A DNA stretch of 64,000 bases from Dehalococcoidia bacterium (GTDB lineage Bacteria; Chloroflexota; Dehalococcoidia; GIF9; UBA5629): contig JBEKIW010000003.1 of assembly GCA_050011565.1 (NCBI GenBank), positions 96,001 through 160,000 on the forward strand, in the 5' to 3' direction. This document shows, one piece after another, positions 29,738-47,166 of this stretch; within the stretch, counting starts at the first letter, position 1; every line of letters begins with the position of its first letter. The position numbers and the translations under genes are program-made. Under the pieces are notes generated by a model. It saw only the letters and a program-made list of their open reading frames with translations, was not told the origin of the DNA and made no database searches.

Positions 29738-30565
29738 ATGGCAGGCGAGAATAACATAAAGATGCGGATTGAAAAGCTCTGCCTTTCCTTCGGCGGAGTT
29801 AGAGCCCTTATAGATGTAAGTCTCGACGTAAAAGATAAGGCAATTCTAGCTGTTATCGGCCCAAATGGCGCCGGCAAGACCTGCATACTCAACTGCATAA
29901 ACGGCTTCTACAAGCCGCAAGAGGGTGAAATATACTACGAAGGCAAGAAAATCACCCGTCTCCGACCGGATAAGATAGCCAGAATGGGTATAGCCAGGAC
30001 TTTCCAGAACATCGAGCTGTATTCCGGCCTGACAGCCTTAGATAATCTCATGGCTGCCAGGCATGTGTTGATGAAGCAGAGCACAGCCGCGAGCGCTCTA
30101 TATTTCGGTCCCGCCCATAAGGAAGAAATCGAACATCGCCGAGCGGTCGAGGACATCATCGACTTCCTGGAGATAGAGCCGATTAGAAAAAAAGTGGTCG
30201 GCACACTGCCCTACGGAATGCGCAAACGTGTTGAGCTTGGCCGCGCTCTGGCTCTGGAACCGAAAATACTGCTGCTCGACGAACCGATGGCCGGCATGAA
30301 CCTGGAGGAGAAAGAGGACATCGCCCGGTTCATCATAGACATATTCGAGGGGCAGGGAGAAACTTATCCCGAAACACCAGTCCTCAGAGACGGAGTTAGC
30401 TGCATTATTCTGGTGGAGCATGACATGGGAGTGGTGATGGACATAGCCGATAGGATTGCCGTTCTTGATTTCGGGCGCAAGATTGCCGAGGGCACACCGG
30501 AAGAAATCAAAAACAACCCGCAGGTCATATCGGCGTACTTAGGCACAGAAAAAGTTAAAAGTTAA
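29738..30565 (+). CDS. Liv-type ABC transporter ATP-binding subunit (LivG-like)
   Basis: GPNGAGKT, ARTFQN, LPYG, LLDEP, VEHDM, AYLG. Confidence 0.92.
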   Translation: MAGENNIKMRIEKLCLSFGGVRALIDVSLDVKDKAILAVIGPNGAGKTCILNCINGFYKPQEGEIYYEGKKITRLRPDKIARMGIARTFQNIELYSGLTALDNLMAARHVLMKQSTAASALYFGPAHKEEIEHRRAVEDIIDFLEIEPIRKKVVGTLPYGMRKRVELGRALALEPKILLLDEPMAGMNLEEKEDIARFIIDIFEGQGETYPETPVLRDGVSCIILVEHDMGVVMDIADRIAVLDFGRKIAEGTPEEIKNNPQVISAYLGTEKVKS

Positions 30566-31087
30566 AAACCAAAAGTCAAAAGTACAAATAAAAAATTAAA
30601 AATTATTTCATGCCTTTTAGAGTCATAATATCAGCATAAATTAAATATTAAAAGTTAAAATGCAAAATGATAAGCCAAGATTTAGAGATATGCTCAAAAC
30701 GCGAGTTTACAGTTTTGCGTTGGATATAATCACATTTGTTGACCAATTACCTAAAGGGCAAGTTTCAAGCGTTATCGGTGAGCAATTATTACGGAGTGCC
30801 ACCAGCATTGGAGCCAATGTTGTTGAGTCTCAAGGTGCCGCTTCAAGAAAAGACTATGCTAATTTCTTTCGTCATGCCTTGAAATCAGCTAATGAGACAA
30901 AATTCTGGTTAGGTCTCCTGCGGGATTCAGGTAAAGCGGACAAGATGACAACTGATAAGCTTTTAAAAGAGTCAAATGAATTGGCCAAAATACTGGCTAC
31001 CAGCATCATCACCCTAAAGGGGCGGGGATAATTTTTTAAACTTTTAACTTGAATTTTTGATATTTGAGTTTTGATTTTTGACTTACG
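30550..31087. mobile_element. Putative cassette: heptad-repeat inverted arms enclosing a four-helix-bundle gene
   Basis: Left arm AAAAGTT AAAAGTT AAAAACC AAAAGTC (30550-30604); right arm GATATTT GAGTTTT GATTTTT GACTTAC (31032-31087). Mobility is inferred. Confidence 0.55.
30660..31031 (+). CDS. Four helix bundle protein (23S rRNA IVS protein / TIGR02436-like family)
   Basis: QLLRSATSIGANVVE, ALKSANETKFWL, ESNELAKIL. Confidence 0.92.
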   Translation: MQNDKPRFRDMLKTRVYSFALDIITFVDQLPKGQVSSVIGEQLLRSATSIGANVVESQGAASRKDYANFFRHALKSANETKFWLGLLRDSGKADKMTTDKLLKESNELAKILATSIITLKGRG

Positions 31088-31088
31088 T

Positions 31089-31880
31089 TTATAGCCATCG
31101 CTTGCGCCGCTTGTAATGCTTGACTGACCGGTAGCTCTTCTTGGTGCCGACCGCCGATAGGCCCATGTAAAATTCCTTTACGTCTTCGTTATTCCTCAGG
31201 AAATCGGCGGTACCATCGAGCACCACCCGCCCGTTTTCCATGACATAGCCGTAATGGGCGATCTTGAGCGCAATTCTGACATTCTGTTCCACCAGCAAAA
31301 TGGACGTTTTCTTCTCAGTATTGAATCGCTGTATGATGGCATAAATCTCTTCCACCAGCATCGGCGCCAGACCAAGCGACGGCTCATCCAGCATCATAAG
31401 CTTGGGCGCCGACATCATTGCCCGGCCGATGACCAGCATCTGCTGCTCGCCGCCGGAAAGATAGCCGGCAATGTTATGGCGCAGATTTTTAAGCCGCGGA
31501 AAATAGCCATAAACCATGCCCAGGTCTTCTCTAATAGCATGACCGTCTCGTCGGTTATGAGCGCCCACCATAAGGTTCTCCTCAGCAGTCAGATGCCCAA
31601 AGACGCGCCGGCCTTCCAGCGCCTGAACAATACCCAGCTTGCCTATCTCAACCGCACTCTTTTTGTCGATTCTCTGTCCGTCCCACTCAATGCTGCCGTC
31701 AACCACATCCCCCTCTTCAACTTGAAGCAGGCCGGATATGGCTTTGAGCGTGGTGGTTTTGCCGGCACCGTTGGCGCCCAGCAGAGCCACCACAGTGCAG
31801 TCCTCGACAGCCAAAGAGATGCCGTGTAAAACTCTTATCACGTTCAGATAGGCAACTTCGATGCTGTTCAGTCTAAGCAT
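31089..31880 (-). CDS. Liv-type ABC transporter ATP-binding subunit (LivF-like)
   Basis: GANGAGKT, LSGGEQQM, DEPSLGLAP, YKRRKRWL tail typical of CoA-ligase-linked Liv systems. Confidence 0.92.
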   Translation of the reverse strand: MLRLNSIEVAYLNVIRVLHGISLAVEDCTVVALLGANGAGKTTTLKAISGLLQVEEGDVVDGSIEWDGQRIDKKSAVEIGKLGIVQALEGRRVFGHLTAEENLMVGAHNRRDGHAIREDLGMVYGYFPRLKNLRHNIAGYLSGGEQQMLVIGRAMMSAPKLMMLDEPSLGLAPMLVEEIYAIIQRFNTEKKTSILLVEQNVRIALKIAHYGYVMENGRVVLDGTADFLRNNEDVKEFYMGLSAVGTKKSYRSVKHYKRRKRWL

Positions 31881-31942: not shown

Positions 31943-33208
31943 TTACTTTCCAAACCAGTCGTACGTTTCATACTTAATCAGGGGCGCTTCCACCCAGTCA
32001 GTCAGCGGAGTAATTTTGCCGCTAACTATCTGGAGAACTCGATTAAATTTGTCAAGCCTGTTATCACCGGGTGTGTAACTTACAGCACCATGAAGTCCGG
32101 CAACATCGTAGTTCTGCAGCTTTTGTATGCCCTGGGTCTCCACGGCCTGCCAGGCTGCGGCATCGCCTTTGGCCAGCGTGTCATAGCCGACGTTCTTCAC
32201 CGCCAGCTCCAGAGCCTTGGCCACAATCAGACCCTGTGCCCACGAGACCATATAGTCAGCATTACCTACATTCTCGGGGTGATACTGCTGGCAATATTCC
32301 ACCATCTTGGCCATGCCCGGCACATTATCTCCCCACTGCACCGTTGGATATACACCATAAACGCCTTCGACGACATCGGCACCACCCAAATCAATCAGAG
32401 CTTTGGTCATGCCAGCATGGCAGCAACCGATGGTTACGCCCGGATACATGCCCAGGTCTCTGGCATTCTTGATAATAACCGCGGTCGGCGCCGGTGTACT
32501 GGAAATATACAGTACGTCCGGGGTCAAGCCTTTAACTCGCGTTAGCGTATCCATTTCAGAGGTCGTGGTCGCCGCATGCTCATCCATGGAGACGACCTCA
32601 ATGCCCAGTTCGTCAGCCTTGGCCTTGAAGGCATCTCGAGCCCCGTATCCCGTGGGATTGTTAAGCATAAGTAGTGCAAATTTAGGCTTGCCCGTACCCT
32701 TCCAGATGTTCTTCATGTAGTAGTTAGCGAAAACTATAGCGTCATCGCCATAGTCAGGTGTTTGGCCGTAGATATGCGCTGGCGGCCGGTACAACGAAGG
32801 CGAGCTGAAGCAGGAAATGCCCGGGAATCCCGCCTCGTTGGCAGCCCCCTTAGCGGGTGACATCTCGGCAGAAGCCGCCGTGGTAAATAACAGACAGCCA
32901 CTAGACATGAATCCATTAACGATGGTGACCACTTTAGTAGGGTCGTAGTTGCTATCTAGAATTGTAGCCTCAATCGGGTATCCGCCGGCGCCGCCCAGTT
33001 CGGTATTAATGTATTTAATAACGTCGGTGTTACCGTTCATCATGGGAAGCCCCTTCTCAGCGGCTTTACCCGTAGAGGGGTTCATCATACCGATTTTCAA
33101 TACCTGTCCGGGTTGAGCTTTAGGGGCACAAGCACCGGCAAAGGGCATCACCGCTATTACCAGCGCCAAGCATAAAACTCCAATTACCATTAACGATTTT
33201 TTAGTCAA
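31943..33208 (-). CDS. Liv-type ABC substrate-binding lipoprotein
   Basis: Lipobox AGAC, periplasmic binding protein type I features, GGAGG RBS before TTG. Confidence 0.88.
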   Translation of the reverse strand: MTKKSLMVIGVLCLALVIAVMPFAGACAPKAQPGQVLKIGMMNPSTGKAAEKGLPMMNGNTDVIKYINTELGGAGGYPIEATILDSNYDPTKVVTIVNGFMSSGCLLFTTAASAEMSPAKGAANEAGFPGISCFSSPSLYRPPAHIYGQTPDYGDDAIVFANYYMKNIWKGTGKPKFALLMLNNPTGYGARDAFKAKADELGIEVVSMDEHAATTTSEMDTLTRVKGLTPDVLYISSTPAPTAVIIKNARDLGMYPGVTIGCCHAGMTKALIDLGGADVVEGVYGVYPTVQWGDNVPGMAKMVEYCQQYHPENVGNADYMVSWAQGLIVAKALELAVKNVGYDTLAKGDAAAWQAVETQGIQKLQNYDVAGLHGAVSYTPGDNRLDKFNRVLQIVSGKITPLTDWVEAPLIKYETYDWFGK

Positions 33209-33279: not shown

Positions 33280-34329
33280 TTAATATGAGAACGGCCACAG
33301 ACGGTAAGCGGCCTTGAATAGTGCCCAGCGATGCGCCAGCCCCCGTGGCTCCAGAATTAGAAACAATATGATGGCCAGGCCGAACACCATCGGCCCCAGG
33401 CCGGTAGTAAAGCCGGTCGACAGCGAGGGTATGGCGTTTTCAATGAATGGAGATATATAAATAACCACCTGCTGCAGAAGTCGTATAACCACCACACCCA
33501 GAATAGGACCGATGGTCGTGCCCAGTCCGCCGATAATCACCATACCTATATACAGTATAGAGTCGGTTAGTGTAAAGTTCTCGGCATTCAAAAAGCCGGT
33601 CCAGTGTGCGAGCAGGGCACCGGCAATTCCAGCCAGAAAACAGCCGATGAAGAAAGCCAGAAGCTTGTAGTAAAGCAGATTGATACCCATTACTTCAGCC
33701 GCCAGGTCGTTATCCCTGACGGCAATAAAGGCTCTGCCCACCCTGCCCCTGGCCAGATTTTTAGCCAGAAATATACACAGCGCCACAATGACCATAATCA
33801 GGTAGAACTGGCTGGCTTGACTTCTAAACACGAAACCGAAAATAGAGGCACGGGGAACGTCCATGCCCACAAAGCCGCCGGTTACCGACCAGTGGTTGAT
33901 AATCCAGATGATGATAAATTGAGCGGCAATGGTGGTAATCGCCAGATAAAAACCTTTAACCCGCACCGACGGCAAGCCGAAGATAATACCTATCAGCCCG
34001 GCACTGAAACCGGAACAAATAAGTCCAGCTAAGAATGGAAGGCCAAGCCTGCTGGTCAAAATTGCTGTAGTATAGGCACCTACCGCCATAAAACCGGCAT
34101 GCCCGATGGATAGCTGTCCGCAGTAGCCGATAAGTATATTCAAACCGGTAACAGCGATTATAGTAATCCCTATTAAGTTGAATATGCCCAGCCAGTTATC
34201 ACGTAAATACAACGGCGCGGTAAAAACAAGGATTAAAAATCCGATAAAAAATGCCCAGTGAGTCTTGGTCCGCAGGACGGCCATGTCCCTGGCGTAATCG
34301 TAATTACGCGTACCGCTGGGTAAATCCAT
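33280..34329 (-). CDS. Liv-type ABC permease (LivM-like)
   Basis: GYCGQLSIGH, GFYLAITT, GRAFIAVRDNDLAA, IIGGLG. Confidence 0.92.
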   Translation of the reverse strand: MDLPSGTRNYDYARDMAVLRTKTHWAFFIGFLILVFTAPLYLRDNWLGIFNLIGITIIAVTGLNILIGYCGQLSIGHAGFMAVGAYTTAILTSRLGLPFLAGLICSGFSAGLIGIIFGLPSVRVKGFYLAITTIAAQFIIIWIINHWSVTGGFVGMDVPRASIFGFVFRSQASQFYLIMVIVALCIFLAKNLARGRVGRAFIAVRDNDLAAEVMGINLLYYKLLAFFIGCFLAGIAGALLAHWTGFLNAENFTLTDSILYIGMVIIGGLGTTIGPILGVVVIRLLQQVVIYISPFIENAIPSLSTGFTTGLGPMVFGLAIILFLILEPRGLAHRWALFKAAYRLWPFSY

Positions 34330-34332
34330 TAC

Positions 34333-35217
34333 TTATATCCTCTCTATCCGCGTCTCGCCGAAAAGCCCGTAAGGCTTGATAATCATGACGATTATTATAA
34401 TGATGAACGGAATAATATCTTTAATCCCCGGCCCGATCAGCGGCGTGAGATAGCCGCCGCCAAAGTTTTCGCACAACCCTATTATCGGTCCGGCCACCAT
34501 GCAGCCGATAAATGAATCCAGGCCGCCCAGTATCACCACCGAGAACGATTTCAGCCCGGTCTCCACCAGCCCAAAGGTGACGCCACCAATGCTGGAGACG
34601 AGCACACCACCGATAGCTGCCACCACGCAGGCAAAAATCCACGATATTGAAAAAACGCTGGTCACCGGAATAGCGCATGCCTGTACCGCCATCTGGTCGT
34701 CAGCGGTCGCCCTCATGGCTATACCCATCTTGTGGTATTTAAAAAACAAGGATAGAAGGCCAAACAGCGCTAGAGATATGACCGCCGCCCACATATATTC
34801 CTGAGAAACTACTGCCGGACCGATATGAATCGGCTGCTGGGGGAAAAGACGAGGCAAACGAGCGACGCTTACGGGCCAGACAAAAGTAACCAGGCCTTCA
34901 AGAAAATAGGCCACACCCAGCGTTACCGTAATCAACGCCAATATCGGTTGAGCAATCAGCGGACGTAAGGTGAATCGCTCTATAGCCCAGCCCAGGAATA
35001 CGGCAAAGACAATAGTCAGCGGCAGTCCGACCCAGTAGGGAAACTTGGCCTGCACCAGCATACCGTAGGTAAACCATGAGGAAATCAAAACGAGCTGCCC
35101 CAGTGCCAGGTTAGCCACGCTGCTGGACTTCCATATTAAGGCAAAACCCAGGGCGATAAGCGCATAAACCATGCCCACTGCTAAACCCGTAATAGTATAT
35201 TGAAGCAGTTCAGCCAT
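34333..35217 (-). CDS. Liv-type ABC permease (LivH-like)
   Basis: YALIALGF, GIAMRATADD, VILGGLDS, KPYGLFG. Confidence 0.92.
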   Translation of the reverse strand: MAELLQYTITGLAVGMVYALIALGFALIWKSSSVANLALGQLVLISSWFTYGMLVQAKFPYWVGLPLTIVFAVFLGWAIERFTLRPLIAQPILALITVTLGVAYFLEGLVTFVWPVSVARLPRLFPQQPIHIGPAVVSQEYMWAAVISLALFGLLSLFFKYHKMGIAMRATADDQMAVQACAIPVTSVFSISWIFACVVAAIGGVLVSSIGGVTFGLVETGLKSFSVVILGGLDSFIGCMVAGPIIGLCENFGGGYLTPLIGPGIKDIIPFIIIIIVMIIKPYGLFGETRIERI

Positions 35218-37434
35218 TTAATTCACCTGCCTGACGTTGATAGCCGTGCTGACCACACCGTGTCTACCGTCTCTGTATGTCACGGGTGCCTCGACAGTCA
35301 CGTTCTTTTTATCTCCGTACATTGCCTCAATCAAGTCCTTATACCGCTGTTCCACAAAGTCCCGGCGCAGTTTTCTGGTCCTGGTAAGCTCGGCTTCATC
35401 GGCGTCGAACTCCTTATGCAGCAGGACGAATTTCCTGACTCTGGAACCCTCCGGCAAATAGCTGTTCACGCGGATTAAGTCCTTCTGTACCAGATCGGCA
35501 ACTTCTTTTTTCTGGGACAGGTCGACGAAAGTGGTATACGGAAGACCGTGACGCTCTGCCCATTTGCCCACCATGGCGAAATCTATATTGACTATGGCGC
35601 CAACGAAGCCTCTCTCCTTGCCACCCACAACCATGGCATCTTTTATGTAGGGACTGAACCTGAGCCTGCCCTCGATATACTGAGGTGCATACTTCGTGCC
35701 GGAAGCCAGCTCACCCATGTGTTCCACGCGGTCCATGAATATCAGGTGTCCCTGGTCATTGATGTTAACCGCGTCGCCTGTCCGGCACCAGCCGTTTACT
35801 ACCACCGCCACCGTCTTCTCCGGGTCCTTAAAGTATTCTTTGAAAAGACATTCACTTCTGACCAGCAGTTCTCCTTCATCGGTCACTCTAACTTCCACGC
35901 CTGATGCCGGCCGGCCCACGCTCTGAAAATCAATCTCCCCTTTGCCGTGAGAGGAGATAAAGCCGGCTTCGGTACTGGCATAGTTCTGTCTCAGTTCAAT
36001 GCCAATGGCATGTATTAAGCGGAAGGTATCCAGGCTGAGCACCGAGCTGCCGGTAACGGCCAGTCTGGCTTTAACCAACCCCAGCCTATCCTTCAGTGGT
36101 CTAAAAAGCAATGCGTACGCTAATCCGTACAGCGTCCGCCAGAACAAGTCCGGTGTCTTGCTTTCGAAGCTCAGGTCGGCCATCTTATAGCCTACCGGCA
36201 TAAACAGGTTATAAAAGAAGCGCTTTATGGGGTTGGCATCGGTTATTTTCACCTGGATTTCGCTGACCAGGCTCTCCCATTGACGAGGCCCGTAGATAAC
36301 AAAGTCGGGGCCGACCTCCCGCGTATCCTCGGCAATTGTCTCCGGCTCCTCGGGAAAGTTAATCCTGGCGCCGGTCAGCAAATGGGGTACGGTAGCAAAA
36401 AAGCTGTCGCCCACCCAGGCCGGCGGGAAGTTAGAGACCAAATCATCGTTGCCCGTAAACGGAAAACGGTCAACAAATCCCCGAGAGGTATTTATCAGCG
36501 CTTTATGGGTAATCACCGCCCCTTTGGGCAAACCGGTAGTACCGGAGGTATAGTAAATAAAGGCGGTGTCACTACCTTTCCCCTTCTTCACATTCTGCTC
36601 GAATAATTTCGGATGCTTTTTTTCGTATTCCTTGCCCTGATCAACAACGTCGACAAAATTCAGTAAGAACGCCGTTGGCCATAATCCCTCTTTTAAAAAG
36701 AGTATCGCATCTTCGATAAGCTTCTCATCGTCAGGCGTAAGAATTATCTTATCAGGATGACCGTCAGGCCTTTTAATGGTGATGTTTTCGCGACTCATTT
36801 TTTCAAATATAGGTATAAACTCATTGAGTTGGCTGCGTATTTTCTCTTTATGGATTTCAACGTTCTTTAGTTCTTTGACTCGGGAAAGCCTTTCGATCTG
36901 TTCGTGGCTAATGGGGAAATTTAAACTATCCTCGCATTTTAGCAATAGATCACACATTTTATTAACAAATTCATTTTTGGCAATTGGCAAAGTCTCTGGA
37001 TAATTTTTCAGCCCCTTCGGGTCCCAGTAAATCACTTTCTTCAGCGAAGGCAGTTCCTCCTTTATCTCAAGGAATTTATCGGTCTGCTCCTGGTCATTGA
37101 CAATGGCGAATTTGGCACCCGCGTGAGCGGCGACGTATTTCACTTCGGAAGGTATGGCGTCGACGAAAATGCCGGTGGCGATACCGCCAGCGGCTTGGGC
37201 TGCAAACTCTCCCCAGAACCATTCCGGCTCATTGTCGCCGATGATGCAGACCACGTCTCCGGGCTTAAAGCCCAGGCTTATCAAGCCCAAAGAGAAGGAT
37301 TTCACATTTTCGTAATATTCTTTCCAGCTATATCGCCGCCAGATGCCGCGGTGCTTCATGGACATGGCAGTCCTCTGACCCCACTTCTCGCAGTTGCTCT
37401 TTATCAGTTGCGGTATCGTCTCGCTATCAGCCAT
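35218..37434 (-). CDS. AMP-dependent acyl-CoA ligase (FadD-like) with an internal insertion
   Basis: YTSGTTGLPKG, YASTE, RTGDA, ELTRTRKLRR. Confidence 0.9.
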   Translation of the reverse strand: MADSETIPQLIKSNCEKWGQRTAMSMKHRGIWRRYSWKEYYENVKSFSLGLISLGFKPGDVVCIIGDNEPEWFWGEFAAQAAGGIATGIFVDAIPSEVKYVAAHAGAKFAIVNDQEQTDKFLEIKEELPSLKKVIYWDPKGLKNYPETLPIAKNEFVNKMCDLLLKCEDSLNFPISHEQIERLSRVKELKNVEIHKEKIRSQLNEFIPIFEKMSRENITIKRPDGHPDKIILTPDDEKLIEDAILFLKEGLWPTAFLLNFVDVVDQGKEYEKKHPKLFEQNVKKGKGSDTAFIYYTSGTTGLPKGAVITHKALINTSRGFVDRFPFTGNDDLVSNFPPAWVGDSFFATVPHLLTGARINFPEEPETIAEDTREVGPDFVIYGPRQWESLVSEIQVKITDANPIKRFFYNLFMPVGYKMADLSFESKTPDLFWRTLYGLAYALLFRPLKDRLGLVKARLAVTGSSVLSLDTFRLIHAIGIELRQNYASTEAGFISSHGKGEIDFQSVGRPASGVEVRVTDEGELLVRSECLFKEYFKDPEKTVAVVVNGWCRTGDAVNINDQGHLIFMDRVEHMGELASGTKYAPQYIEGRLRFSPYIKDAMVVGGKERGFVGAIVNIDFAMVGKWAERHGLPYTTFVDLSQKKEVADLVQKDLIRVNSYLPEGSRVRKFVLLHKEFDADEAELTRTRKLRRDFVEQRYKDLIEAMYGDKKNVTVEAPVTYRDGRHGVVSTAINVRQVN

Positions 37435-37462
37435 AGCCTAATGCCTTAATCTGCCCCTTAAC

Positions 37463-37490
37463 AAAAAAGCCTCCCGCCTGGGAGGCTTTT
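37463..37490 (-). terminator. Attenuator terminator upstream of the CoA-ligase/ABC operon
   Basis: Minus strand AGCCTCCC-AGGC-GGGAGGCT-TTTTTG. Confidence 0.85.
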
Positions 37491-37523
37491 ACTTTCTGTT
37501 TTATCTTATTCCTGCTCTATGGT

Positions 37524-37610: not shown

Positions 37611-37630
37611 TTCGAACTTCACGAAACGAG

Positions 37631-37659
37631 ATAGTATCATAACAGATTCAGCCTGTCAA
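37631..37659 (-). promoter_or_regulatory. sigma70-type promoter of the Phe leader
   Basis: TTGACA-17nt-TACTAT. Confidence 0.75.
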
Positions 37660-41592: not shown

Positions 41593-42609
41593 CTAAATAT
41601 ACCTCCCCACCGCCTCGGCAATGAGCTTAAGCTCGGTCATCAACCGGGCAAAGTCCGACGGTGTCAGCGATTGGAGGCCATCCACCAGGGCTTCCTTGGG
41701 GTTGGGATGGGCTTCGATGAGGAGACCGTCGGCACCGGCGGCTATAGCCGCTTTAGCCAGCGCGGGCACCAGAGAATAATGTCCGGCGGCGTGGCTGGGG
41801 TCGACAACTAAAGGCAAGTGGCTGGATTTCTTTATCACGGGAATCGAGCCGATATCCAGAGAAAAACGAGTGCTGTCCTCGAAGGTCCTGATGCCCCTCT
41901 CACATAAAATAACCCGGTCATTGCCACCAGCCAATAAATAGTCGGCGGCGGTAAGCCATTCGGTAACCGTAGCCGATAAGCCCCGCTTAAGTAGAACAGG
42001 GCACCGGCTCTTACCGATTTCGGTCAGTAGCGCATAGTTCTGCATATTCCTGGCTCCGACCTGGAGTATGTCAGCATACTGCGATACCCTGTCGACATCA
42101 TGAGGTGCCACCACCTCAGTGATTACAGGCATGCCGAATTGCTGCTTGGTCTGCTGTAACATCTTTAGACCGGCCTCCTCCAGACCTTGAAAGGCAAAAG
42201 GTGAGGTGCGCGGTTTATAGGCGCCGCCTCGTAGAATGCAGGCTCCAGCCTCCTTAACCATCATGGCTGCCGCCATGAGCTGTTTCTCGCCTTCGACGGC
42301 ACAGGGGCCGGCCATGACCACAATGCGCTTGCCGCCGATTTGAACCCCGTTGACGGAAACTACGGTGTTCTCCGGTTTGAACTCGCGGGCACTGAGCTTG
42401 TACGGCTTCATAATCCTGGTCACGCTCTCCACACCGGGGAGAACGGCAAAGATGTCAATAGGCAGCTGGCCGGTATTGGGTCCCAGCAAAGCGACGACCA
42501 CCTTGTTGGTGCCCAGATTCAACTGGACGCCCAGCCCTAGCTCCTTGGCCCGCTGCACGACGTCGTCTACTTCTGCTTGAGGAGCGCCGGTTCTCATTTC
42601 AACTATCAT
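41593..42609 (-). CDS. aroF: DAHP synthase (type I-beta with N-terminal regulatory domain)
   Basis: AGPCAVE, RGGAYKPRTSP, GARNMQN, LLKRG, CERGIRTF, VDPSH. Confidence 0.95.
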   Translation of the reverse strand: MIVEMRTGAPQAEVDDVVQRAKELGLGVQLNLGTNKVVVALLGPNTGQLPIDIFAVLPGVESVTRIMKPYKLSAREFKPENTVVSVNGVQIGGKRIVVMAGPCAVEGEKQLMAAAMMVKEAGACILRGGAYKPRTSPFAFQGLEEAGLKMLQQTKQQFGMPVITEVVAPHDVDRVSQYADILQVGARNMQNYALLTEIGKSRCPVLLKRGLSATVTEWLTAADYLLAGGNDRVILCERGIRTFEDSTRFSLDIGSIPVIKKSSHLPLVVDPSHAAGHYSLVPALAKAAIAAGADGLLIEAHPNPKEALVDGLQSLTPSDFARLMTELKLIAEAVGRYI

Positions 42610-42676: not shown

Positions 42677-42710
42677 AAAAACAGAAAGCCTCCCGCGGGG
42701 CGGGAGGCTC
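42677..42710 (-). terminator. Attenuator terminator upstream of aroF
   Basis: Minus strand AGCCTCCCGC-CCC-GCGGGAGGCT-TTCTGTTTTT. Confidence 0.85.
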
Positions 42711-42740
42711 TTTTTGCCTTAGATATTTTGCTGCTGTTTT

Positions 42741-42830
42741 TTAGGTCGATGCCATCCCAGACCCGCGCCGAGGCGTGCTAAACCAAAAGCCAAAGAAAAA
42801 CCAGCTATAGCTGCGAGTCAGGTTATGCAT
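42741..42830 (-). CDS. Aromatic leader peptide MHNLTRSYSWFFFGFWFSTPRRGSGMAST
   Basis: Translated by hand; Y, 2 W and 5 F within 10 codons; CGCGGG..GGGATGGC can pair with the terminator 5' arm; alternative in-frame ATG at 42839. Confidence 0.85.
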   Translation of the reverse strand: MHNLTRSYSWFFFGFWFSTPRRGSGMAST

Positions 42831-42849
42831 TTCGACCATGGTGTTTAGA

Positions 42850-42879
42850 ATGATAGCAATAAATGTTGAACGTTGTCAA
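42850..42879 (-). promoter_or_regulatory. sigma70-type promoter of the aroF leader
   Basis: TTGACA-18nt-TATCAT with extended TG. Confidence 0.7.
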
Positions 42880-43119: not shown

Positions 43120-43575
43120 CTAGACCAGGGGAATTGTGGTGCCGGTGGCTTTGGCGATGAGCTTGCCGTCCTGGTTGGTCACCATCATCTCGGAGATGCA
43201 GACCCGCCTGCCGGCCCTGACCACACGGCATTCGGCGATAAGCTCGTCTTTCACATCGGCGCTGGCGACAAAATGGATGTTGAACTGCGAGGCTACGTTA
43301 GGAGTGATTACGGAGTTGGTGCCGTAGGCGAAAGCCTGGTCAGCCACAGCCATGATAATGCCGCCGAAGACCAGGTTATTGAAGTTAAGGTATTCGGGCT
43401 TAAGCTTCGCCGATACTCTGGCATAGCCCTCGGATAACTCCAGCAACTTTATGTCTAAAAATTTGGCGATAGGCTCACTACCGGCTTTTGCCTTCAAGGC
43501 TGCTACATTGTCAGAGGCATTGGCGCCCACAGCGGCATTTGCTCCGGGTTTTTGTTTATCAGTTTTCTTATCCAT
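43120..43575 (-). CDS. PaaI-family hotdog thioesterase
   Basis: LNFNNLVFGGIIMAVADQAF, LIAKATG. Confidence 0.85.
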   Translation of the reverse strand: MDKKTDKQKPGANAAVGANASDNVAALKAKAGSEPIAKFLDIKLLELSEGYARVSAKLKPEYLNFNNLVFGGIIMAVADQAFAYGTNSVITPNVASQFNIHFVASADVKDELIAECRVVRAGRRVCISEMMVTNQDGKLIAKATGTTIPLV

Positions 43576-43581
43576 AATATA

Positions 43582-44769
43582 TTAACGCAAGCCAAATTTT
43601 TTGGCTGCTTTTTTGAAGCCGTCCAGAGAACCTTTTAAGGTCTTGTCATCAACGCAGTACGAAATGCGAAAATAGCCCGGTGTGCCGAAGCCCCGCCCCG
43701 GCACCACCAGCACATTCCACTGCCGCAGCTCGTTGACAAAGGCAACGTCATCCTCTACCGGCGACTTAGGAAACATGTAGAAAGCACCATGCGGCTTTAC
43801 CACCGAGTAGCCCAGGTCAACAAGATTGCCATAAAGAAAATCCCTCTTCTTTTGATAATCGGCTATAGAGACGGTGACATGCTGCAGGTTCTTCACCAGG
43901 TGCTGCATCAACGCCGGTGCATTGACAAATCCCAAAATCCGGGTGCAGAAAATAAAGCCGTTGACCAGCTCATCATGCTGGCTGCAATCCGGATGTATGG
44001 CGATATAACCAATGCGCTCACCAGGTAGCGCCAGGTCTTTGGAATGGGAATGAACAACTATGGTGTGGCGGTGGTGATGGAAAACAGGCGGGTATGGCAA
44101 CCCGTCAAATATGATTTTGCGATATGCCTCGTCGCTTATAAGATAAATCTGCTTGTCGTTTTGAGCCTCTTTTCGACGCAGCAGCTCGCCTAATTGCATC
44201 ACCAGGTCCCGGCTGTAGACCGCGCCGGTCGGGTTATTAGGAGAATTGATAATGACGGCTTTTGTCTTGGTCGAAATGGCGGCTTCAAGGGAATCCAGCT
44301 TCGGCACAAATTGCTCATTCGTGGGCAAGACCTTGATAACTCCACCGTGATTATCTATGTAGTTGCCGAATTCCATGAAGTAAGGAGCGAACACAATCAC
44401 CTCGTCTCCGGGATTCAGTATTGTCTTCAATACCACATTCAAGCCGCCGGCAGCGCCGCAGGTCATGACAATATCGTTGCCGCAGAATTTAATGCCGGTC
44501 TCGTGCGAGAGCTGTACGGCAACGGCGGCTCGTGTGTCTGCATAACCGGCATTCTCCATATATCTGTGCATACCCGGCACAGGTTTTTTCATCAGCTTCT
44601 TCAATTCCTGGTTAAACTCAGGCGGCGGCTCCATGACCGGATTCCCCAGGGACAGGTCGAAAACATCCTTCTCACCGTATCGCTTTTTGAGATTAGCCCC
44701 TTCCTCGAACATCCTCCGTATCCACGACCCCTCCATCATGCGTTTGCTGACATTATCTGACACCGGCAC
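43582..44769 (-). CDS. Class I PLP aminotransferase (aspartate/aromatic)
   Basis: DLSLGNP, NSPNNPTG, DEAY, SHSKDLALPGERIGY. Confidence 0.92.
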   Translation of the reverse strand: MPVSDNVSKRMMEGSWIRRMFEEGANLKKRYGEKDVFDLSLGNPVMEPPPEFNQELKKLMKKPVPGMHRYMENAGYADTRAAVAVQLSHETGIKFCGNDIVMTCGAAGGLNVVLKTILNPGDEVIVFAPYFMEFGNYIDNHGGVIKVLPTNEQFVPKLDSLEAAISTKTKAVIINSPNNPTGAVYSRDLVMQLGELLRRKEAQNDKQIYLISDEAYRKIIFDGLPYPPVFHHHRHTIVVHSHSKDLALPGERIGYIAIHPDCSQHDELVNGFIFCTRILGFVNAPALMQHLVKNLQHVTVSIADYQKKRDFLYGNLVDLGYSVVKPHGAFYMFPKSPVEDDVAFVNELRQWNVLVVPGRGFGTPGYFRISYCVDDKTLKGSLDGFKKAAKKFGLR

Positions 44770-45352
44770 GAGACATCTCCTCCCTGCCTTTATCGAAGGC
44801 GACCATGTTCATTTTTAGAATGTTGGGTGACAGCCGTTGAGAAATGCAGTCTTTCCAAACATCAATGCCAATGGGCAGAAACGAAGATAAACAGCCCAGC
44901 ATAATCATATTCAGCGTCCTGATATCGCCCAGTTCCTTAGCCTGGCGGGTGCCATCAACGAAGTAAAAACGCTCAGCCCACTGCCGCAATATGCCCTCTA
45001 TCTCCTTATCGCCCGGGTACCGCTGGGTCCCTAGGCTCACCGACAATGGCGGCGTCGACTGATTATTGACAATGGAGGCACCGCCCTCGTGTAAATAGTA
45101 GCTCCACCTGGCTGCCTCCAATTTCTCGAAAGCGACCAGTATATCGACCTCGCCTTCTTTGATTAAAGGCGACCACACCTTATCAGATATACGAACATGA
45201 CTGACGACGCTGCCGCCTCGCTGTGCCATACCCAACGTATCCGTTTTCTTGACATCATAACCGGCAGCCAGTGCCACCTCACCCAGTATATCGCTGGCCA
45301 GAACTATACCCTGCCCGCCTACGCCCACCATAAGCAAGTCCTGCTTTTTCAC
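44753..45352 (-). CDS. iorB: Indolepyruvate:ferredoxin oxidoreductase beta subunit
   Basis: GVGGQG, GMAQRGGSV.SHVR; GTG start overlaps the iorA stop (GTGA). Confidence 0.92.
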   Translation of the reverse strand: MKKQDLLMVGVGGQGIVLASDILGEVALAAGYDVKKTDTLGMAQRGGSVVSHVRISDKVWSPLIKEGEVDILVAFEKLEAARWSYYLHEGGASIVNNQSTPPLSVSLGTQRYPGDKEIEGILRQWAERFYFVDGTRQAKELGDIRTLNMIMLGCLSSFLPIGIDVWKDCISQRLSPNILKMNMVAFDKGREEMSRAGVR

Positions 45353-47166
45353 TTCGACTCTCCGACAGCAGTCAATGGGCCTATTGCCTTTTTGGGGCAG
45401 AGCTGCTCGCAGATGGTACAGGCAGCACCAGCACACAGCGCGGCATCGATGTAAATCTGCTCATCCAGATTTTGTATTGCCGGACAGCCGATTCTCAGGC
45501 ACGTCTCGCAGTCGTCGCATTTTTCTATATCAACAGCTCTTTGGCCGGAGCGCTTTCGCAGCCGTACCGAGCAAGCTCCGCGGACTATTATGACAGACAG
45601 CTCAGGGTTATCCAGCGAACTTCTCACCGCCGCTCTAAGAGCTTTCATATCAAAGGCGTCAACTACCTTGACGTCGTTAACTCCGACGCCTTTAACCAGC
45701 CGCTCCAGCTCAACCATCCGGGTCTTTTTGCCCTTGGCTGAAACTCCCGTTCCGGGATGGTCCTGGTGTCCGGTCATAGCCGTAGTGCCGTTATCCAGTA
45801 TGATAATCGTCACTCCCGATTTGTTGTAGACGGCATCGACCACGCCGGTAATACCGGAATGGAGGAACGTGGAGTCGCCGATAACAGCCACCACCTTGCC
45901 CTCAACGCCGGCCTTCTCCATTCCCAGAGCCTGACCGATGCCCGCACCCATACAGGCGGTAGTATCCATAGCGCGCAGCGGCGGATAGGTAGCCAGCGTA
46001 TAGCAGCCGATATCGCCGGTGATAATCAACTTCCCTTGCTCTTCCGACTTGCCTCTGGCATCCAGCAGCTTGGACCTCTGGCCTATGGTGTTAAGCACAA
46101 AGAATATGCCGGCATGCGGACAACCGCCGCACAGGACGGGGGGCCGTCCCGGTAATCCCTGCGGCAGCGGCACCTGCCTGCGTGAAGGCTTGGCTAATAG
46201 TCCAGCACGGTAACCGGCTGCCTCGACAATGCCCGGATTCAACTCACCGATTCTGGGGATGAACTCCTTTCCCGTCACCTTTATACCCATGGCCAGTATA
46301 TTTTCCTCCAGGAATGGGTCGAGCTCTTCAATAACGATTAGCCTGTCCACCTGTGCGGCGAACTCTTGGAGTAACTTCCGCGGCAGCGGATAGGTCATGC
46401 CCAGCTTAAGAAAAGAAGCCCTGGGAAATGCCTCTCTGGCGTACTGGTAGGCAACGCCGCTGCTGACCACACCGAGGTGGCATTCTCCCTTGATTATCTG
46501 GTTGCCGGGAAAGGTATCGGCATAGGCAGTAAGCTTGACCAGGCGCTGCTCGACGACCGGCCTCCGGAGACGGACATGAACTGGCAGCATGACATATTTC
46601 TCTACATCGTGCTTGAAGCTGGCTGGATTTGCCGGCGCCACCCGGCTCCGGTTCGTCTCCACCACGGACTTGGAATGAGAAATGCGGGTGCTGGAGCGCA
46701 CCAGCACCGGCGTATCGAACCGCTCACTGAGTTCAAAGGCAACAGCCATCAATTCATAGGCTTCCTGGCTGTCGCTGGGCTCAAGCATGGGCACCTTAGC
46801 CAGTTTGGCATAGTGGCGCGTGTCCTGCTCGTTCTGGGTGCTGAAGACACCAGGGTCATCGGCTACAATCACCACCAGTCCACCATTAATGCCGGTTATA
46901 GATGCCGCCATAAAAGGATCACTGGCTACATTCAGTCCCACCTGCTTCATGGATACCAGAGCTCGAACTCCAGCATAAGCGGCTCCCATGCCCAGCTCCA
47001 TAGCCACCTTCTCATTCGTCGACCACTCCGCGTAGACATCGTCAAAGCGGGCTATCGATTCAAGTATTTCGGTGCTGGGCGTACCGGGATAGGCTGCTGC
47101 CACCATAACGCCGGCATGATAGGCTCCGAGGGCAAAGGCTTCGTTTCCGGAGAGCAGTTTTTTCAT
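45349..47166 (-). CDS. iorA: Indolepyruvate:ferredoxin oxidoreductase alpha subunit
   Basis: GNEA, YPGTPSTE, MKQVGLNVA, GDIGCY, IGDSTF.HSG, C-terminal ferredoxin. Confidence 0.95.
   Translation of the reverse strand: MKKLLSGNEAFALGAYHAGVMVAAAYPGTPSTEILESIARFDDVYAEWSTNEKVAMELGMGAAYAGVRALVSMKQVGLNVASDPFMAASITGINGGLVVIVADDPGVFSTQNEQDTRHYAKLAKVPMLEPSDSQEAYELMAVAFELSERFDTPVLVRSSTRISHSKSVVETNRSRVAPANPASFKHDVEKYVMLPVHVRLRRPVVEQRLVKLTAYADTFPGNQIIKGECHLGVVSSGVAYQYAREAFPRASFLKLGMTYPLPRKLLQEFAAQVDRLIVIEELDPFLEENILAMGIKVTGKEFIPRIGELNPGIVEAAGYRAGLLAKPSRRQVPLPQGLPGRPPVLCGGCPHAGIFFVLNTIGQRSKLLDARGKSEEQGKLIITGDIGCYTLATYPPLRAMDTTACMGAGIGQALGMEKAGVEGKVVAVIGDSTFLHSGITGVVDAVYNKSGVTIIILDNGTTAMTGHQDHPGTGVSAKGKKTRMVELERLVKGVGVNDVKVVDAFDMKALRAAVRSSLDNPELSVIIVRGACSVRLRKRSGQRAVDIEKCDDCETCLRIGCPAIQNLDEQIYIDAALCAGAACTICEQLCPKKAIGPLTAVGESK

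What the first reader, a model, noticed from the sequence alone, without database searches (positions are those of the whole stretch)
29738..47166. Candidate aryl-acid salvage pathway to aromatic amino acids clustered with de novo aroF
Seen within 18 kb: ABC importer + CoA ligase (Phe-attenuated), iorAB, a class I aminotransferase and a PaaI thioesterase in one operon, and attenuated aroF. Established: IOR interconverts arylacetyl-CoA + CO2 and arylpyruvate, and reductive carboxylation of phenylacetate to Phe is known in Methanococcus maripaludis and rumen anaerobes. Inference: uptake -> arylacetyl-CoA -> IorAB carboxylation -> transamination -> Phe, with PaaI relieving CoA trapping. The starvation-type regulation argues for an anabolic direction rather than the catabolic one usually assumed.
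Basis: inference. Interest (0 to 1): 0.75.

Follow-up and report, generated by a model that had tools for sequence, protein, structure and literature searches.

The report
Phenylalanine-switched aryl-acid salvage gene cluster
In an uncultured Dehalococcoidia bacterium, a phenylalanine-sensing RNA switch turns on an acid importer and CoA ligase that sit beside an indolepyruvate oxidoreductase and an aminotransferase, which suggests the cell rebuilds phenylalanine from scavenged phenylacetate and does not use this enzyme only to ferment amino acids.

Summary
Window 29738-47166 holds a LIV-type ABC importer with a 738-aa AMP-forming CoA ligase, a tight iorA-iorB-aminotransferase-PaaI-like operon, and a DAHP synthase gene.

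Both the ligase/importer operon and aroF sit behind paralogous leader-peptide attenuators. The ligase leader has FFFFFF; the aroF leader mixes F, W and Y. These are the only two such leaders found in the 2.0-Mb genome.

The anabolic reading is supported by comparison but is not proven:
- In Dehalococcoidia relatives, iorAB-(AT)-(PaaI) lies directly upstream of fadD-livHM-SBP-livF, and in two loci the gap is about 45 nt.
- A covariance model of the leader hit 69 sites in 50 of 151 genomes of the order. Of 52 sites examined, 19 precede fadD-liv (6-8 Phe codons) and 27 precede DAHP synthases.
- Single sites precede an orthologue of the aminotransferase and a TRAP transporter plus CoA ligase (Tyr-rich leader).
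- A Syntrophaceae genome repeats the same logic with an unrelated leader.

Points against or left open:
- The ior operon itself has no attenuator.
- The de novo pathway (pheA, aroC, aroH, three DAHP synthases) is complete.
- The ligase is not a PaaK.
- Substrate and IOR direction are untested.

The scan had earlier noted similar Phe leaders and a similar ior cluster on other DNA. This locus joins the two.

The parts
29738..30565 (+). livG-like ABC ATPase, transcribed convergently towards the rest of the importer; no leader upstream
   Evidence: Pfam ABC_tran + BCA_ABC_TP_C. NCBIfam LivG scores 237 bits, below its cut-off of 362. The position opposite livF is conserved in relatives.
31089..31880 (-). 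livF-like ABC ATPase, last gene of the attenuated operon
   Evidence: Pfam ABC_tran. NCBIfam LivF scores 206.6 bits, below its cut-off of 441.
31943..33208 (-). Periplasmic/extracellular solute-binding protein (Peripla_BP_6); ligand unknown
   Evidence: Pfam PF13458, 100.9 bits. There are only weak PDB relatives (E 3e-7 and worse), labelled LIV-binding proteins or 'extracellular ligand-binding receptor'.
33280..35217 (-). livM-like (33280-34329) and livH-like (34333-35217) permeases
   Evidence: Pfam BPD_transp_2. The livH start directly abuts the ligase stop.
35218..37434 (-). AMP-forming acyl-CoA ligase (AMP-binding + AMP-binding_C_3, FadD11/FACS-like), first gene of the attenuated operon; carries an insert at 36663-36984
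   Evidence: Pfam. No NCBIfam model reaches its cut-off. Orthologues are 633-669 aa and lack residues ~150-255. The insert has 37% GC against 50% for the gene and is unique in the genome.
37459..37659 (-). Phe leader-peptide attenuator of the ligase/importer operon. Promoter 37659-37631; mini-ORF 37610-37524 (7 Phe in 28 codons); helix 1:2; antiterminator CGCCUGGGAG pairing with CUCCCAGGCG; terminator 37490-37465 plus T-run.
   Evidence: Conserved in relatives. Structure counts. R1 hit at C3:133461-133625.
41593..42609 (-). aroF: DAHP synthase type I-beta with N-terminal ferredoxin-like (FXD) domain
   Evidence: Pfam DAHP_synth_1 + DAHP_snth_FXD. NCBIfam NF006421 scores 467 bits, above its cut-off of 335.
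42680..42879 (-). Mixed Phe/Trp/Tyr leader-peptide attenuator of aroF, paralogous to the ligase leader. Promoter 42879-42850; mini-ORF 42839-42741; terminator 42711-42685.
   Evidence: z-score -3.33. 73% column identity to the ligase leader. Conserved in relatives.
43120..43575 (-). PaaI-like hotdog-fold thioesterase, last gene of the ior operon
   Evidence: Pfam 4HBT. TIGR00369 hotdog domain scores 68.3 bits, above its cut-off of 36.6. TIGR02286 PaaI scores 80 bits, below its cut-off of 118.9. Best PDB hits are PaaI chains at E 4.6e-11.
43582..44769 (-). PLP aminotransferase, class I/II, PRK06836 family
   Evidence: NF005305 scores 556 bits, above its cut-off of 376. PDB relatives: 3ELE at E 2e-84, then Thermus AspAT and Pyrococcus aromatic aminotransferase 1DJU. 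A 57% identical orthologue in G029 sits behind a leader of the same RNA family.
44753..47166 (-). iorA (45349-47166) and iorB (44753-45436): indolepyruvate:ferredoxin oxidoreductase
   Evidence: TIGR03336 scores 690 bits, above its cut-off of 650.9. NF005322 scores 237.8 bits, just above its cut-off of 237.
47209..47238 (-). Promoter-like site of the ior operon; no leader ORF or terminator between it and iorA
   Evidence: No leader was seen before iorA in L037, L043 or L046 either.

Best explanation
This is a phenylalanine-supply locus with two branches.

(1) De novo branch. aroF (DAHP synthase) sits behind a leader peptide rich in Phe, Trp and Tyr codons.

(2) Salvage branch.
- When charged tRNA-Phe runs short, ribosomes stall in the FFFFFF leader. 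The antiterminator then forms and the operon ligase-livH-livM-SBP-livF is transcribed.
- The ABC system, together with the separately transcribed livG, imports an aromatic carboxylic acid, most likely phenylacetate.
- The AMP-forming ligase traps it as the CoA thioester.
- IorAB, made from its own unattenuated promoter, carboxylates arylacetyl-CoA reductively with reduced ferredoxin to give phenylpyruvate.
- The PRK06836 aminotransferase then makes phenylalanine.
- The PaaI-like thioesterase probably hydrolyses wrongly activated or stalled acyl-CoAs.

Shown here: gene identities at family level, the attenuator anatomy and its conservation, the regulon of the leader family, and the synteny, fusion, co-occurrence and co-loss of the modules.

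Inferred: the transported substrate, the ligase specificity, the direction of IOR in vivo, and the role of PaaI.
For: Attenuators
- Both have a promoter, a mini-ORF and a terminator.
- The helix enclosing the leader ORF plus the terminator is paired in 84.8% of cells across 18 sequences, against at most 52.8% when the partners are slid. Eight pairs change on both sides, and 0 of 500 shuffles reach the covariation score.
- These are the only two Phe-type leaders in the genome.

Regulon of leader model R1
- R1 gave 69 hits in 50 of 151 genomes of the order.
- Of 52 hits examined:
  - 19 precede fadD-liv orthologues, with 6-8 Phe and at most one Trp or Tyr in the leader.
  - 27 precede DAHP synthase homologues, with mixed F/W/Y leaders.
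  - 1 precedes a 57% identical orthologue of the window's aminotransferase.
  - 2 precede LIV-type ABC genes.
  - 1 has a Tyr-rich leader and precedes TRAP DctPQM followed by a 479-aa AMP ligase.

Synteny
- Among the loci fetched around 16 fadD orthologues, ior/AT/PaaI lie upstream in the same orientation wherever enough contig exists: L036, L037, L047, L043 and L046, with the contig-end cases L039 and L041. The exceptions are L040 and L044.
- Among 16 Dehalococcoidia iorA loci, 7 run iorAB-(AT)-(PaaI)-fadD-livHM-(SBP)-livF (SBP not detected in L072).
- In L070 and L072 the gap between AT and fadD is about 45 nt with no leader, so they form one operon.

Co-occurrence in 40 relatives
- Both modules 14; fadD only 3, two of them at contig ends next to PaaI/AT; iorA only 4; neither 19.
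- G005 (same genus, 96% complete) has lost fadD-liv and has no IOR alpha at E<=1e-60.

Other support
- PaaK-like ligase genes lie inside the same importer cluster in L073, L076 and L079.
- In a Syntrophaceae MAG the operon SBP-livG-ligase-livHM-livF...paaK-like sits behind an unrelated F/Y leader (MLENISLKRAVFFYFFSFINRVCQRDS*) plus terminator.
- Precedent: Porat et al. showed aryl acids feed a second, IOR-dependent aromatic amino-acid pathway in M. maripaludis. I saw this only as cited in a passage of PMC4162585.
- From established knowledge: catabolic IOR pathways conserve energy with ADP-forming acyl-CoA synthetases (passage in PMC5817080), whereas AMP-forming ligases normally activate acids.
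Against: - There is no experimental or expression data.
- IOR is reversible, and the ior-AT-PaaI operon has no attenuator in this window or in L037, L043 and L046.
- The importer belongs to the LIV family, whose classic members carry amino acids (by recall, E. coli LIV-I also carries Phe). The binding protein's best PDB hit is labelled a branched-chain amino-acid binder, though only at E 3e-7.
- The ligase is FACS/FadD11-like and reaches no curated family cut-off. It is not a PaaK. The genome's three PaaK-like genes lie elsewhere.
- A thioesterase in the same operon would oppose an anabolic flux.
- The de novo pathway is complete.
- The antiterminator is conserved (80.6% of cells paired, against at most 53.3% when slid) but shows no significant covariation.
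- In this genome the ligase carries a 107-aa low-GC insert that might impair it.
- L064 and L067 have ior-AT-PaaI with at least 7 kb downstream and no fadD. In G007 the two modules lie on different large contigs.
- Relatives are not independent samples.
Confidence: 0.6

Rival explanations
1. The attenuated ABC system is a phenylalanine (or aromatic amino-acid) importer of the LIV type. Phe starvation simply raises Phe uptake. The CoA ligase has an accessory or unrelated role, and the neighbouring IorAB-aminotransferase operon works independently in either direction.
For: - Family-level membership in the LIV-type ABC family.
- The top PDB hit of the binding protein is labelled a branched-chain amino-acid binding protein.
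- By recall, E. coli LIV-I also carries Phe.
- Leader control fits an amino-acid scavenger just as well.
- Two R1 leaders precede LIV ABC genes where no ligase comes first (G090, G136).
Against: - The ligase is the first gene, abuts livH, and is kept in all 19 leader-linked operons.
- The same module is fused to iorAB-AT in L070 and L072.
- The same module holds PaaK-like genes in L073, L076, L079 and L146.
- A Tyr leader controls a TRAP transporter (by established knowledge, a family that carries carboxylic acids) plus a CoA ligase in G090.
- G005 lost the importer/ligase and IOR together.
- G000 has three other LIV-type clusters without a fadD-type ligase (one has only a 23%-identical fadD-like match) that could serve amino-acid uptake.
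Confidence: 0.17
2. The importer/ligase takes up and activates some other phenyl compound or hydrophobic acid that spares phenylalanine without passing through IorAB, for example phenylpyruvate, phenyllactate, cinnamate or phenylpropionate. Its closeness to ior would then reflect a shared aromatic-acid theme and not one linear pathway.
For: - The ligase family is generic and FACS-like.
- In genus g1 an SDR-MaoC-hotdog set typical of beta-oxidation-like steps lies next to the operon.
- The ior operon is not co-regulated.
- In G005 the retained Phe leader drives an MBL-fold protein and a BcrAD-type ATPase beside a GlcD/GlcF-like 2-hydroxy-acid oxidase pair.
Against: - A CoA thioester of a C6-C2 acid is exactly the IOR substrate.
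- Phenylpyruvate would need no CoA ligase.
- The SDR/MaoC genes are missing from most relatives that keep ior-fadD adjacency (L041, L043, L046, L070-L079).
- fadD-liv and window-type iorA co-occur in 14 of the 21 of 40 relatives that have either, and are both missing in 19.
Confidence: 0.12
3. The cluster is catabolic. Aromatic amino acids or aryl acids are taken up and fermented through the aminotransferase and IorAB in the oxidative direction. The thioesterase, or the ligase running backwards, releases the aryl acid.
For: - This is the usual reading of ior in genomes of anaerobes (passages in PMC10116835, and PMC5817080).
- A thioesterase after IOR fits release of the acid.
- A second iorAB paralogue shows the genome uses this enzyme type more than once.
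Against: - A Phe-codon leader shuts the importer/ligase off when Phe is plentiful, which is the opposite of what a Phe-degrading system needs.
- The same leader family otherwise controls biosynthetic DAHP synthases.
- No ADP-forming acyl-CoA synthetase was found among the annotated ORFs of >=80 aa in 27000-51201.
- AMP-forming ligases normally consume ATP.
Confidence: 0.08

Closest known systems
IOR-dependent aryl-acid assimilation into aromatic amino acids in Methanococcus maripaludis (Porat et al.; seen here only as cited in a passage of PMC4162585; details recalled). Also the reductive carboxylation of phenylacetate in rumen bacteria (recalled, no call).
   Same: It is an optional second route beside an intact de novo pathway. 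IorAB plus an aminotransferase would convert an activated aryl acid into the amino acid.
   Different: - The host here is an uncultured bacterium of the Dehalococcoidia.
- Uptake (LIV-type ABC) and activation (FACS-like AMP ligase) genes are physically joined to iorAB-AT.
- The uptake/activation module is under a Phe leader-peptide attenuator.
- No labelling or enzymology exists for this system.
Enterobacterial pheL-pheA and pheM-pheST leader-peptide attenuators (Rfam Phe_leader; name and accession recalled)
   Same: A short ORF with a run of Phe codons, a terminator and a competing antiterminator, so that the element senses charged tRNA-Phe through ribosome stalling.
   Different: - The RNA sequence is unrelated; no Rfam family matches at gathering threshold.
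- The phylum is different.
- The targets are an importer/CoA-ligase operon and DAHP synthase, not pheA or pheST.
- pheA in this genome has no such leader (R1 and the mini-ORF scan hit only the two window sites).
iorAB-paaK (phenylacetate-CoA ligase family) gene pairs that are widespread in anaerobes
   Same: IOR is linked to an aryl-acid-activating ligase. A PaaK-like gene lies next to iorAB in 19 of 58 iorA loci with <60% identity to the window iorA (all but one outside Dehalococcoidia). PaaK-like genes also lie inside the importer cluster in L073, L076 and L079.
   Different: In this window the linked ligase is a 738-aa FACS-like enzyme. The PaaK-like position between livF and livG is taken by a four-helix-bundle gene (30660-31031). 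The genome's three PaaK-like genes lie on another contig.
LIV-family ABC importers for aromatic acids in Rhodopseudomonas palustris (CouP and related Peripla_BP_6 proteins; ligands recalled from structural-genomics papers, not seen in a call)
   Same: A Peripla_BP_6 binding protein with LivHMGF-type permease and ATPases beside a CoA ligase. Several of the weak PDB hits (3sg0, 4dqd, 3tx6, 3ukj, 4jb0, 3uk0) are, by recall, such aromatic-acid binders.
   Different: The similarity is weak (E 5.5e-7 and worse), and the hits are interleaved with amino-acid binders. The R. palustris systems serve catabolism of lignin monomers.

Membership tests
Classical leader-peptide transcription attenuator | Short translated ORF with a cluster of codons for the regulating amino acid | tested here: met
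   7 Phe in 28 codons in the ligase leader; 5 Phe, 2 Trp and 1 Tyr in 32 codons in the aroF leader. The cluster is kept in all 19 fadD-linked and all 27 DAHPS-linked leaders examined.
Classical leader-peptide transcription attenuator | Intrinsic terminator between the leader ORF and the regulated gene | tested here: met
   Terminators at 37490-37465 and 42711-42685, followed by T-runs. The terminator helix is paired in 91.7% of cells across 18 sequences.
Classical leader-peptide transcription attenuator | Mutually exclusive antiterminator whose formation depends on where the ribosome sits | tested here: inconclusive
   A perfect 10-bp complement joins the end of the leader ORF to the 5' arm and loop of the terminator. 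In register, 80.6% of cells pair, against at most 53.3% when slid. Covariation is not above shuffles (213 of 500). Function was not tested.
Rfam Phe_leader (enterobacterial) | Match to the curated covariance model at gathering score | tested here: not met
   The Rfam 15 scan of the whole window at gathering threshold returned only the SRP RNA.
Indolepyruvate:ferredoxin oxidoreductase IorAB | Alpha and beta subunits above the curated family cut-offs, encoded side by side | tested here: met
   TIGR03336 scores 690.2 bits (cut-off 650.9). NF005322 scores 237.8 bits (cut-off 237), so it passes only barely.
Indolepyruvate:ferredoxin oxidoreductase IorAB | Physiological direction (oxidative decarboxylation or reductive carboxylation) | not testable with these tools
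   Only regulatory and synteny inference is available.
M. maripaludis-type aryl-acid to aromatic amino-acid pathway | Uptake and CoA activation of aryl acids, IOR, transamination, and label transfer into the amino acid | tested here: inconclusive
   Genes for all four steps are present and linked. The substrates of the importer and ligase, and label transfer, are untested.
PaaK phenylacetate-CoA ligase | Match to TIGR02155 above cut-off | tested here: not met
   The family search of the genome hits only C1:46060-49987 (190 bits or less, cut-off 646.3) and nothing in the window. The window ligase is AMP-binding + AMP-binding_C_3.
PaaI hydroxyphenylacetyl-CoA thioesterase | Match to TIGR02286 above cut-off | tested here: not met
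   80 bits against a cut-off of 118.9. The general hotdog thioesterase domain TIGR00369 is met at 68.3 bits (cut-off 36.6). PaaI chains are the best PDB hits, at E 4.6e-11.
High-affinity branched-chain amino-acid transporter LivFGHM/LivJ | Equivalog-level matches of all components | tested here: not met
   LivG 237 bits (cut-off 362), LivF 207 (441), LivM 142 (366), LivH 99 (379), binding protein 25 (477). Only the Pfam family level is met.
DAHP synthase type I-beta | Match above the curated cut-off, with an N-terminal regulatory domain | tested here: met
   NF006421 scores 467 bits (cut-off 335). Pfam DAHP_snth_FXD covers residues 1-68.

The most novel reading that the evidence does not exclude
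Many strict anaerobes (Dehalococcoidia, Syntrophia and probably others) may run a previously unrecognised, tRNA-charging-controlled salvage regulon. In it, shortage of an aromatic amino acid switches on a carboxylic-acid importer (LIV-type ABC or TRAP) plus a CoA ligase. These feed IOR working in reverse, so CO2 and an environmental aryl acid are turned into the amino acid. If so, ior genes in sediment and subsurface genomes, routinely read as markers of amino-acid fermentation, are often biosynthetic. Phenylacetate and its relatives would then be traded as amino-acid precursors in anoxic communities.
Probability: 0.45. Interest if true: 0.75.

Novelty: new variant of a known kind. Interest (0 to 1): 0.64.

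Why it matters
IOR is reversible, and genome-based reconstructions of uncultured anaerobes almost always book it as peptide fermentation. This locus offers a sequence-level handle on direction. The uptake and activation genes joined to iorAB-aminotransferase are switched on by phenylalanine starvation, through the same RNA scaffold that controls DAHP synthase.

If the reading is right, it changes three things:
- how carbon and amino-acid budgets of Dehalococcoidia and other sediment anaerobes are inferred
- the view of aryl acids, which become shared amino-acid precursors in anoxic communities
- practical cultivation, since supplements such as phenylacetate, 4-hydroxyphenylacetate and indoleacetate could help lineages that resist culture

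It also adds a well-conserved leader-peptide attenuator family outside the Proteobacteria, with a clearly defined regulon.

Tried and rejected
- **RNA evidence.** The look-up of sequencing runs (kind rna) on window 37300-47200 listed no RNA holder, so no reads could be laid.
- **Rfam.** No known RNA family matches either leader at gathering threshold.
- **Binding-protein specificity from sequence.** PDB relatives are too distant (E 3e-7 and worse) and mix amino-acid and other binders. I did not fold the protein, because a fold match would not separate the two classes.
- **Ligase specificity.** PDB hits cover fatty-acid, coumarate, malonate and benzoate ligases alike.
- **Leaders before iorA.** None was seen in the window, L037, L043 or L046. 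A crude aromatic mini-ORF scan of the 74 iorA loci gave only noise outside Dehalococcoidia.
- **Other amino-acid leaders in the genome.** For example Leu/Ile/Val leaders before similar importer/ligase modules: none was convincing.
- **T-boxes.** There are two in the genome, and neither is in the window.
- **Missing pheA.** The idea that the genome lacks pheA was rejected.
- **Literature.** Searches for this regulation or for IOR direction in Dehalococcoidia found no paper describing it. The B. fragilis paper only reports phenylacetate as a product. The library lacks most subscription journals, and I did not read Porat et al. 2004 or the rumen work.
- **Errors corrected.** One search had a wrong structure length and was redone. 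One search had too many words and was redone. One search had a wrong frame and was redone.

Full report
**What is there**

The window is G000:C3:96001-160000 of a 2.0-Mb, 99% complete genome. Earlier notes of this scan call it an uncultured Dehalococcoidia bacterium. The named records fetched agree: the closest iorA loci are Dehalococcoidales/Dehalococcoidia MAGs.

On the minus strand, in the order they are read:
- asd (47327-48415)
- iorA (45349-47166, TIGR03336 690 bits, above cut-off)
- iorB (44753-45436)
- a PRK06836 aminotransferase (43582-44769)
- a PaaI-like hotdog thioesterase (43120-43575; below the PaaI equivalog cut-off, above the general hotdog thioesterase cut-off)
- aroF (41593-42609, DAHP synthase with FXD domain)
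- a hotdog-MaoC-SDR trio (39942-37743)
- a 738-aa AMP-forming CoA ligase (37434-35218), abutting livH (35217-34333)
- livM, a Peripla_BP_6 binding protein and livF (ending at 31089)

livG (29738-30565) and a four-helix-bundle gene (30660-31031) are on the plus strand and converge on livF.

The four genes iorA to PaaI overlap or are 6 nt apart, so they form one operon. The ligase and livH are contiguous.

**The two attenuators**

Upstream of the ligase and of aroF lie two paralogous leaders with 73% column identity. Each has:
- a near-consensus promoter (TTGACA-17-TACTAT and TTGACA-18-TATCAT)
- a mini-ORF
- a long helix joining the start and the end of the mini-ORF
- a GC-rich terminator with a T-run

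The ligase leader encodes MQTQARSFNLFFFFFFSLPAVAPGSTSN. The aroF leader encodes MVEMHNLTRSYSWFFFGFWFSTPRRGSGMAST.

In the ligase leader, the last codons of the ORF (CGCCUGGGAG) are a perfect complement of the 5' arm plus loop of the terminator (CUCCCAGGCG). A ribosome stalled on the Phe run would free this segment to form the antiterminator. A ribosome that reaches the stop codon would cover it, and the terminator would form. This is the classical mechanism.

On an alignment of 18 leaders from 12 genomes:
- The enclosing helix plus terminator is paired in 84.8% of cells, against at most 52.8% when the partners are slid. Eight pairs change on both sides, and no shuffle out of 500 reaches the covariation score.
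- The antiterminator is conserved in sequence (80.6% paired, against at most 53.3% when slid) but shows no covariation above shuffles. Its pairing rests on conservation and complementarity, not on compensatory change.

A genome-wide scan found no other Phe-type leader, and the covariance model R1 hits only these two sites in G000. Rfam has no match. The ior operon has a promoter-like site but no leader, here and in three relatives.

**Synteny**

Orthologues of the ligase (73-93% identity) were found in 17 of 40 relatives, counting a partial one in G020. Flanks were fetched for the 16 others. The block ligase-livH-livM-SBP-livF with livG opposite is conserved.

Where enough contig exists, ior-AT-PaaI lies upstream in the same orientation.
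- In genus g1 it is separated from the ligase by aroF and a variable stretch (L036, L037, L047).
- In other genera and families it is directly adjacent (L041, L043, L046; L039 has only aroF in between).
- L040 and L044 are exceptions.

Starting instead from iorA (74 loci; map), the 16 Dehalococcoidia loci with at least 60% identity divide as follows:
- 7 read iorA-iorB-(AT)-(PaaI)-ligase-livH-livM-(SBP)-livF; the SBP was not detected in L072.
- 2 have at least 7 kb downstream without the ligase (L064, L067).
- 1 has aroF and then the contig end (L068).
- 6 end too early to tell.

In L070 and L072 the aminotransferase is followed by the ligase after about 45 nt with no leader, so there the whole set is one operon.

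In L073, L076 and L079 a PaaK-like gene follows livF. That is where G000 has the four-helix-bundle gene.

In the other 58 loci (below 60% identity to the window iorA; all but one from outside Dehalococcoidia), the FACS-like ligase is never next to ior. A PaaK-like gene is next to it in 19. Two Anaerolineae loci (L084, L134) read liv genes-iorA-iorB-paaK-like. A rumen Lentisphaeria locus (L112) has iorB-paaK-like-AT (44%)-iorA.

**Co-occurrence**

In the 40 relatives:
- 14 have both the ligase orthologue and a window-type iorA.
- 3 have the ligase only. Two of these are contigs that end right at PaaI/AT.
- 4 have iorA only. All four are fragmented assemblies, 77-91% complete.
- 19 have neither, including all ten genomes of family f4.

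These genomes are related, so the counts are descriptive and not a test.

G005 is the same genus, 96% complete and in 6 contigs. It keeps guaB3-lysE-hyp270 and a Phe leader but has other genes in place of ligase-liv. It has no IOR alpha subunit at E<=1e-60. This looks like joint loss.

**Regulon of the leader family**

Model R1 found 69 sites in 50 of 151 genomes sampled from the order. I examined 52 of them. The 17 not examined are the weakest (E between 2.3e-5 and 9.1e-4).

| Gene downstream of the leader | Sites | Leader content |
|---|---|---|
| ligase-liv orthologues | 19 | 6-8 Phe, at most one Trp or Tyr |
| DAHP synthase homologues | 27 | mixed Phe/Trp/Tyr, some Tyr-dominated or Trp/Phe |
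| monocistronic aminotransferase, 57% identical to the window's (G029) | 1 | Y/F-rich |
| LIV-type ABC genes (G090, G136) | 2 | G090: Y/F/W; G136: 2 Phe, 1 Trp |
| TRAP DctP-DctQ-DctM followed by a 479-aa AMP-forming ligase (G090) | 1 | Tyr-rich (…VYYYSYYYG…) |
| the G005 replacement genes | 1 | Phe-rich |
| class IV aminotransferase; weak hit with a non-aromatic mini-ORF, probably false | 1 | non-aromatic |

So the same RNA scaffold controls the entry enzyme of de novo aromatic synthesis and acid-importer/CoA-ligase modules. The codon content is matched to the target.

By established knowledge, TRAP systems carry carboxylic acids. The TRAP case therefore argues that what is imported under starvation is an acid and not the amino acid.

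**An independent replicate**

Earlier notes of this scan reported Phe leaders before importer/ligase operons in Syntrophales and Desulfobacterota. I tested one case myself.

In the Syntrophaceae MAG behind L104 (G041), a 39% identical ligase sits in SBP-livG-ligase-livH-livM-livF, with a PaaK-like gene a little further downstream. It is preceded by MLENISLKRAVFFYFFSFINRVCQRDS* and a terminator with nine T's. The leader sequence is unrelated to R1, so the logic has arisen or been kept independently. That genome also has IOR, on other contigs.

**The rest of the aromatic pathway**

The genome has:
- pheA (PDT + ACT), with no such leader upstream
- chorismate synthase
- AroH chorismate mutase next to a second DAHP synthase
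- a T-box-controlled trpEGDCF-DAHPS-trpBA operon
- three tandem PaaK-like genes
- a second iorAB paralogue beside an FrhB-like gene

The de novo route is therefore intact, and the salvage route would be optional. This mirrors what Porat et al. reported for M. maripaludis, which I saw only as cited in PMC4162585.

**Interpretation**

Phe starvation derepresses an aryl-acid importer and ligase. The thioester is carboxylated by IorAB, and the keto acid is transaminated to Phe.

Shown:
- family-level identities of the genes
- the attenuator anatomy and its conservation
- the regulon of the leader family
- the synteny, fusion and co-loss of the modules

Inferred:
- the substrate (phenylacetate is the natural candidate for a Phe-only leader)
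- the ligase specificity
- the in-vivo direction of IOR
- the thioesterase role (proofreading or CoA rescue)

Main weaknesses:
- The LIV family could carry Phe itself.
- ior is not co-regulated.
- The ligase is not of the PaaK type.
- In this very genome the ligase carries a low-GC in-frame insert absent from all orthologues.
- There are no expression or biochemical data.

The catabolic reading is the least likely, because a Phe-codon leader turns the operon off when Phe is abundant.

**Novelty**

Both ingredients are known: IOR-dependent aryl-acid assimilation and leader-peptide attenuation. New as far as my searches go (a library without most subscription journals) are:
- the leader family
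- its regulon (DAHP synthase plus importer/ligase modules)
- the physical joining of that module to iorAB-aminotransferase in Dehalococcoidia

The scan had already noted the two halves separately on other DNA: e1-689601 for the ior-AT-ligase block with direction left open, and e1-4836697 and others for Phe leaders before importer/ligase operons. This locus shows both together, and so supplies the regulatory argument for direction.

Noticed in passing
window 36663-36984 (-): There is an in-frame insert of about 107 aa in the CoA ligase, just before the P-loop motif. It has 37% GC against 50% for the gene, no Pfam match and no other copy in the genome. It is absent from all orthologues, including the 93% identical one in G012.
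   Followed up: partly
window 37743-39942 (-) and 40075-40878 (+): An SDR-MaoC-FAS1-type hotdog operon with its own promoter (40007-39979) and a low-GC unknown gene sit between the ligase leader and aroF. This stretch varies between relatives: 1-6 kb of different genes in L033, L036 and L037. It behaves like an insertion hotspot.
   Followed up: partly
L182/L197 (G005:C2:258000-272500): In a genome of the same genus the Phe leader is kept, but it drives an MBL-fold protein and a BcrAD/BadFG-type ATPase. A GlcD-like FAD oxidase and a CCG/Fe-S protein lie convergent to them. The ligase-liv operon and livG are gone, and no IOR alpha was found in that genome.
   Followed up: partly
L183/L198 (G090:C23) and L185/L199 (G090:C21): In a family-f4 genome, a Tyr-rich leader of the same RNA family precedes a TRAP DctPQM transporter plus a 479-aa AMP ligase. 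A Y/F/W leader precedes a LIV-type ABC system that is followed by trpD, trpB and a TrpB-like gene.
   Followed up: partly
L188/L196 (G029:C7:11667-13064): A Y/F-rich leader of the same family precedes a monocistronic aminotransferase that is 57% identical to the window's.
   Followed up: partly
L147 (G000:C1:411000-422500) and L148 (G000:C3:198000-207000): There are two further DAHP synthase paralogues. One is embedded in a trpEGDCF-DAHPS-trpBA operon downstream of a T-box (C1:421336-421605). The other follows an AroH chorismate mutase and precedes ribF and tyrS.
   Followed up: partly
L060 (G000:C1:685456-689152): A second iorAB paralogue (IOR_alpha 590 bits, below cut-off) lies next to an FrhB/FdhB-like protein and an FAD_binding_2 flavoprotein. 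It may be the catabolic counterpart.
   Followed up: no
window 42620-42670, 42925-43110, 47260-47325: Palindromic repeat units of the type CTCTCCCTT..AAGGGAGAG / GGGTGAGGGTGA fill the intergenic spaces around the leaders and between asd and iorA.
   Followed up: no
G004:C80:1901-3616 and G012:C19:11552-12451: The window-type iorA of two relatives carries an in-frame stop (TGA and TAA respectively). These could be pseudogenes or assembly errors.
   Followed up: no
window 14789-15052 (-): Bacterial large SRP RNA (212 bits). It is the only Rfam match in the window.
   Followed up: no
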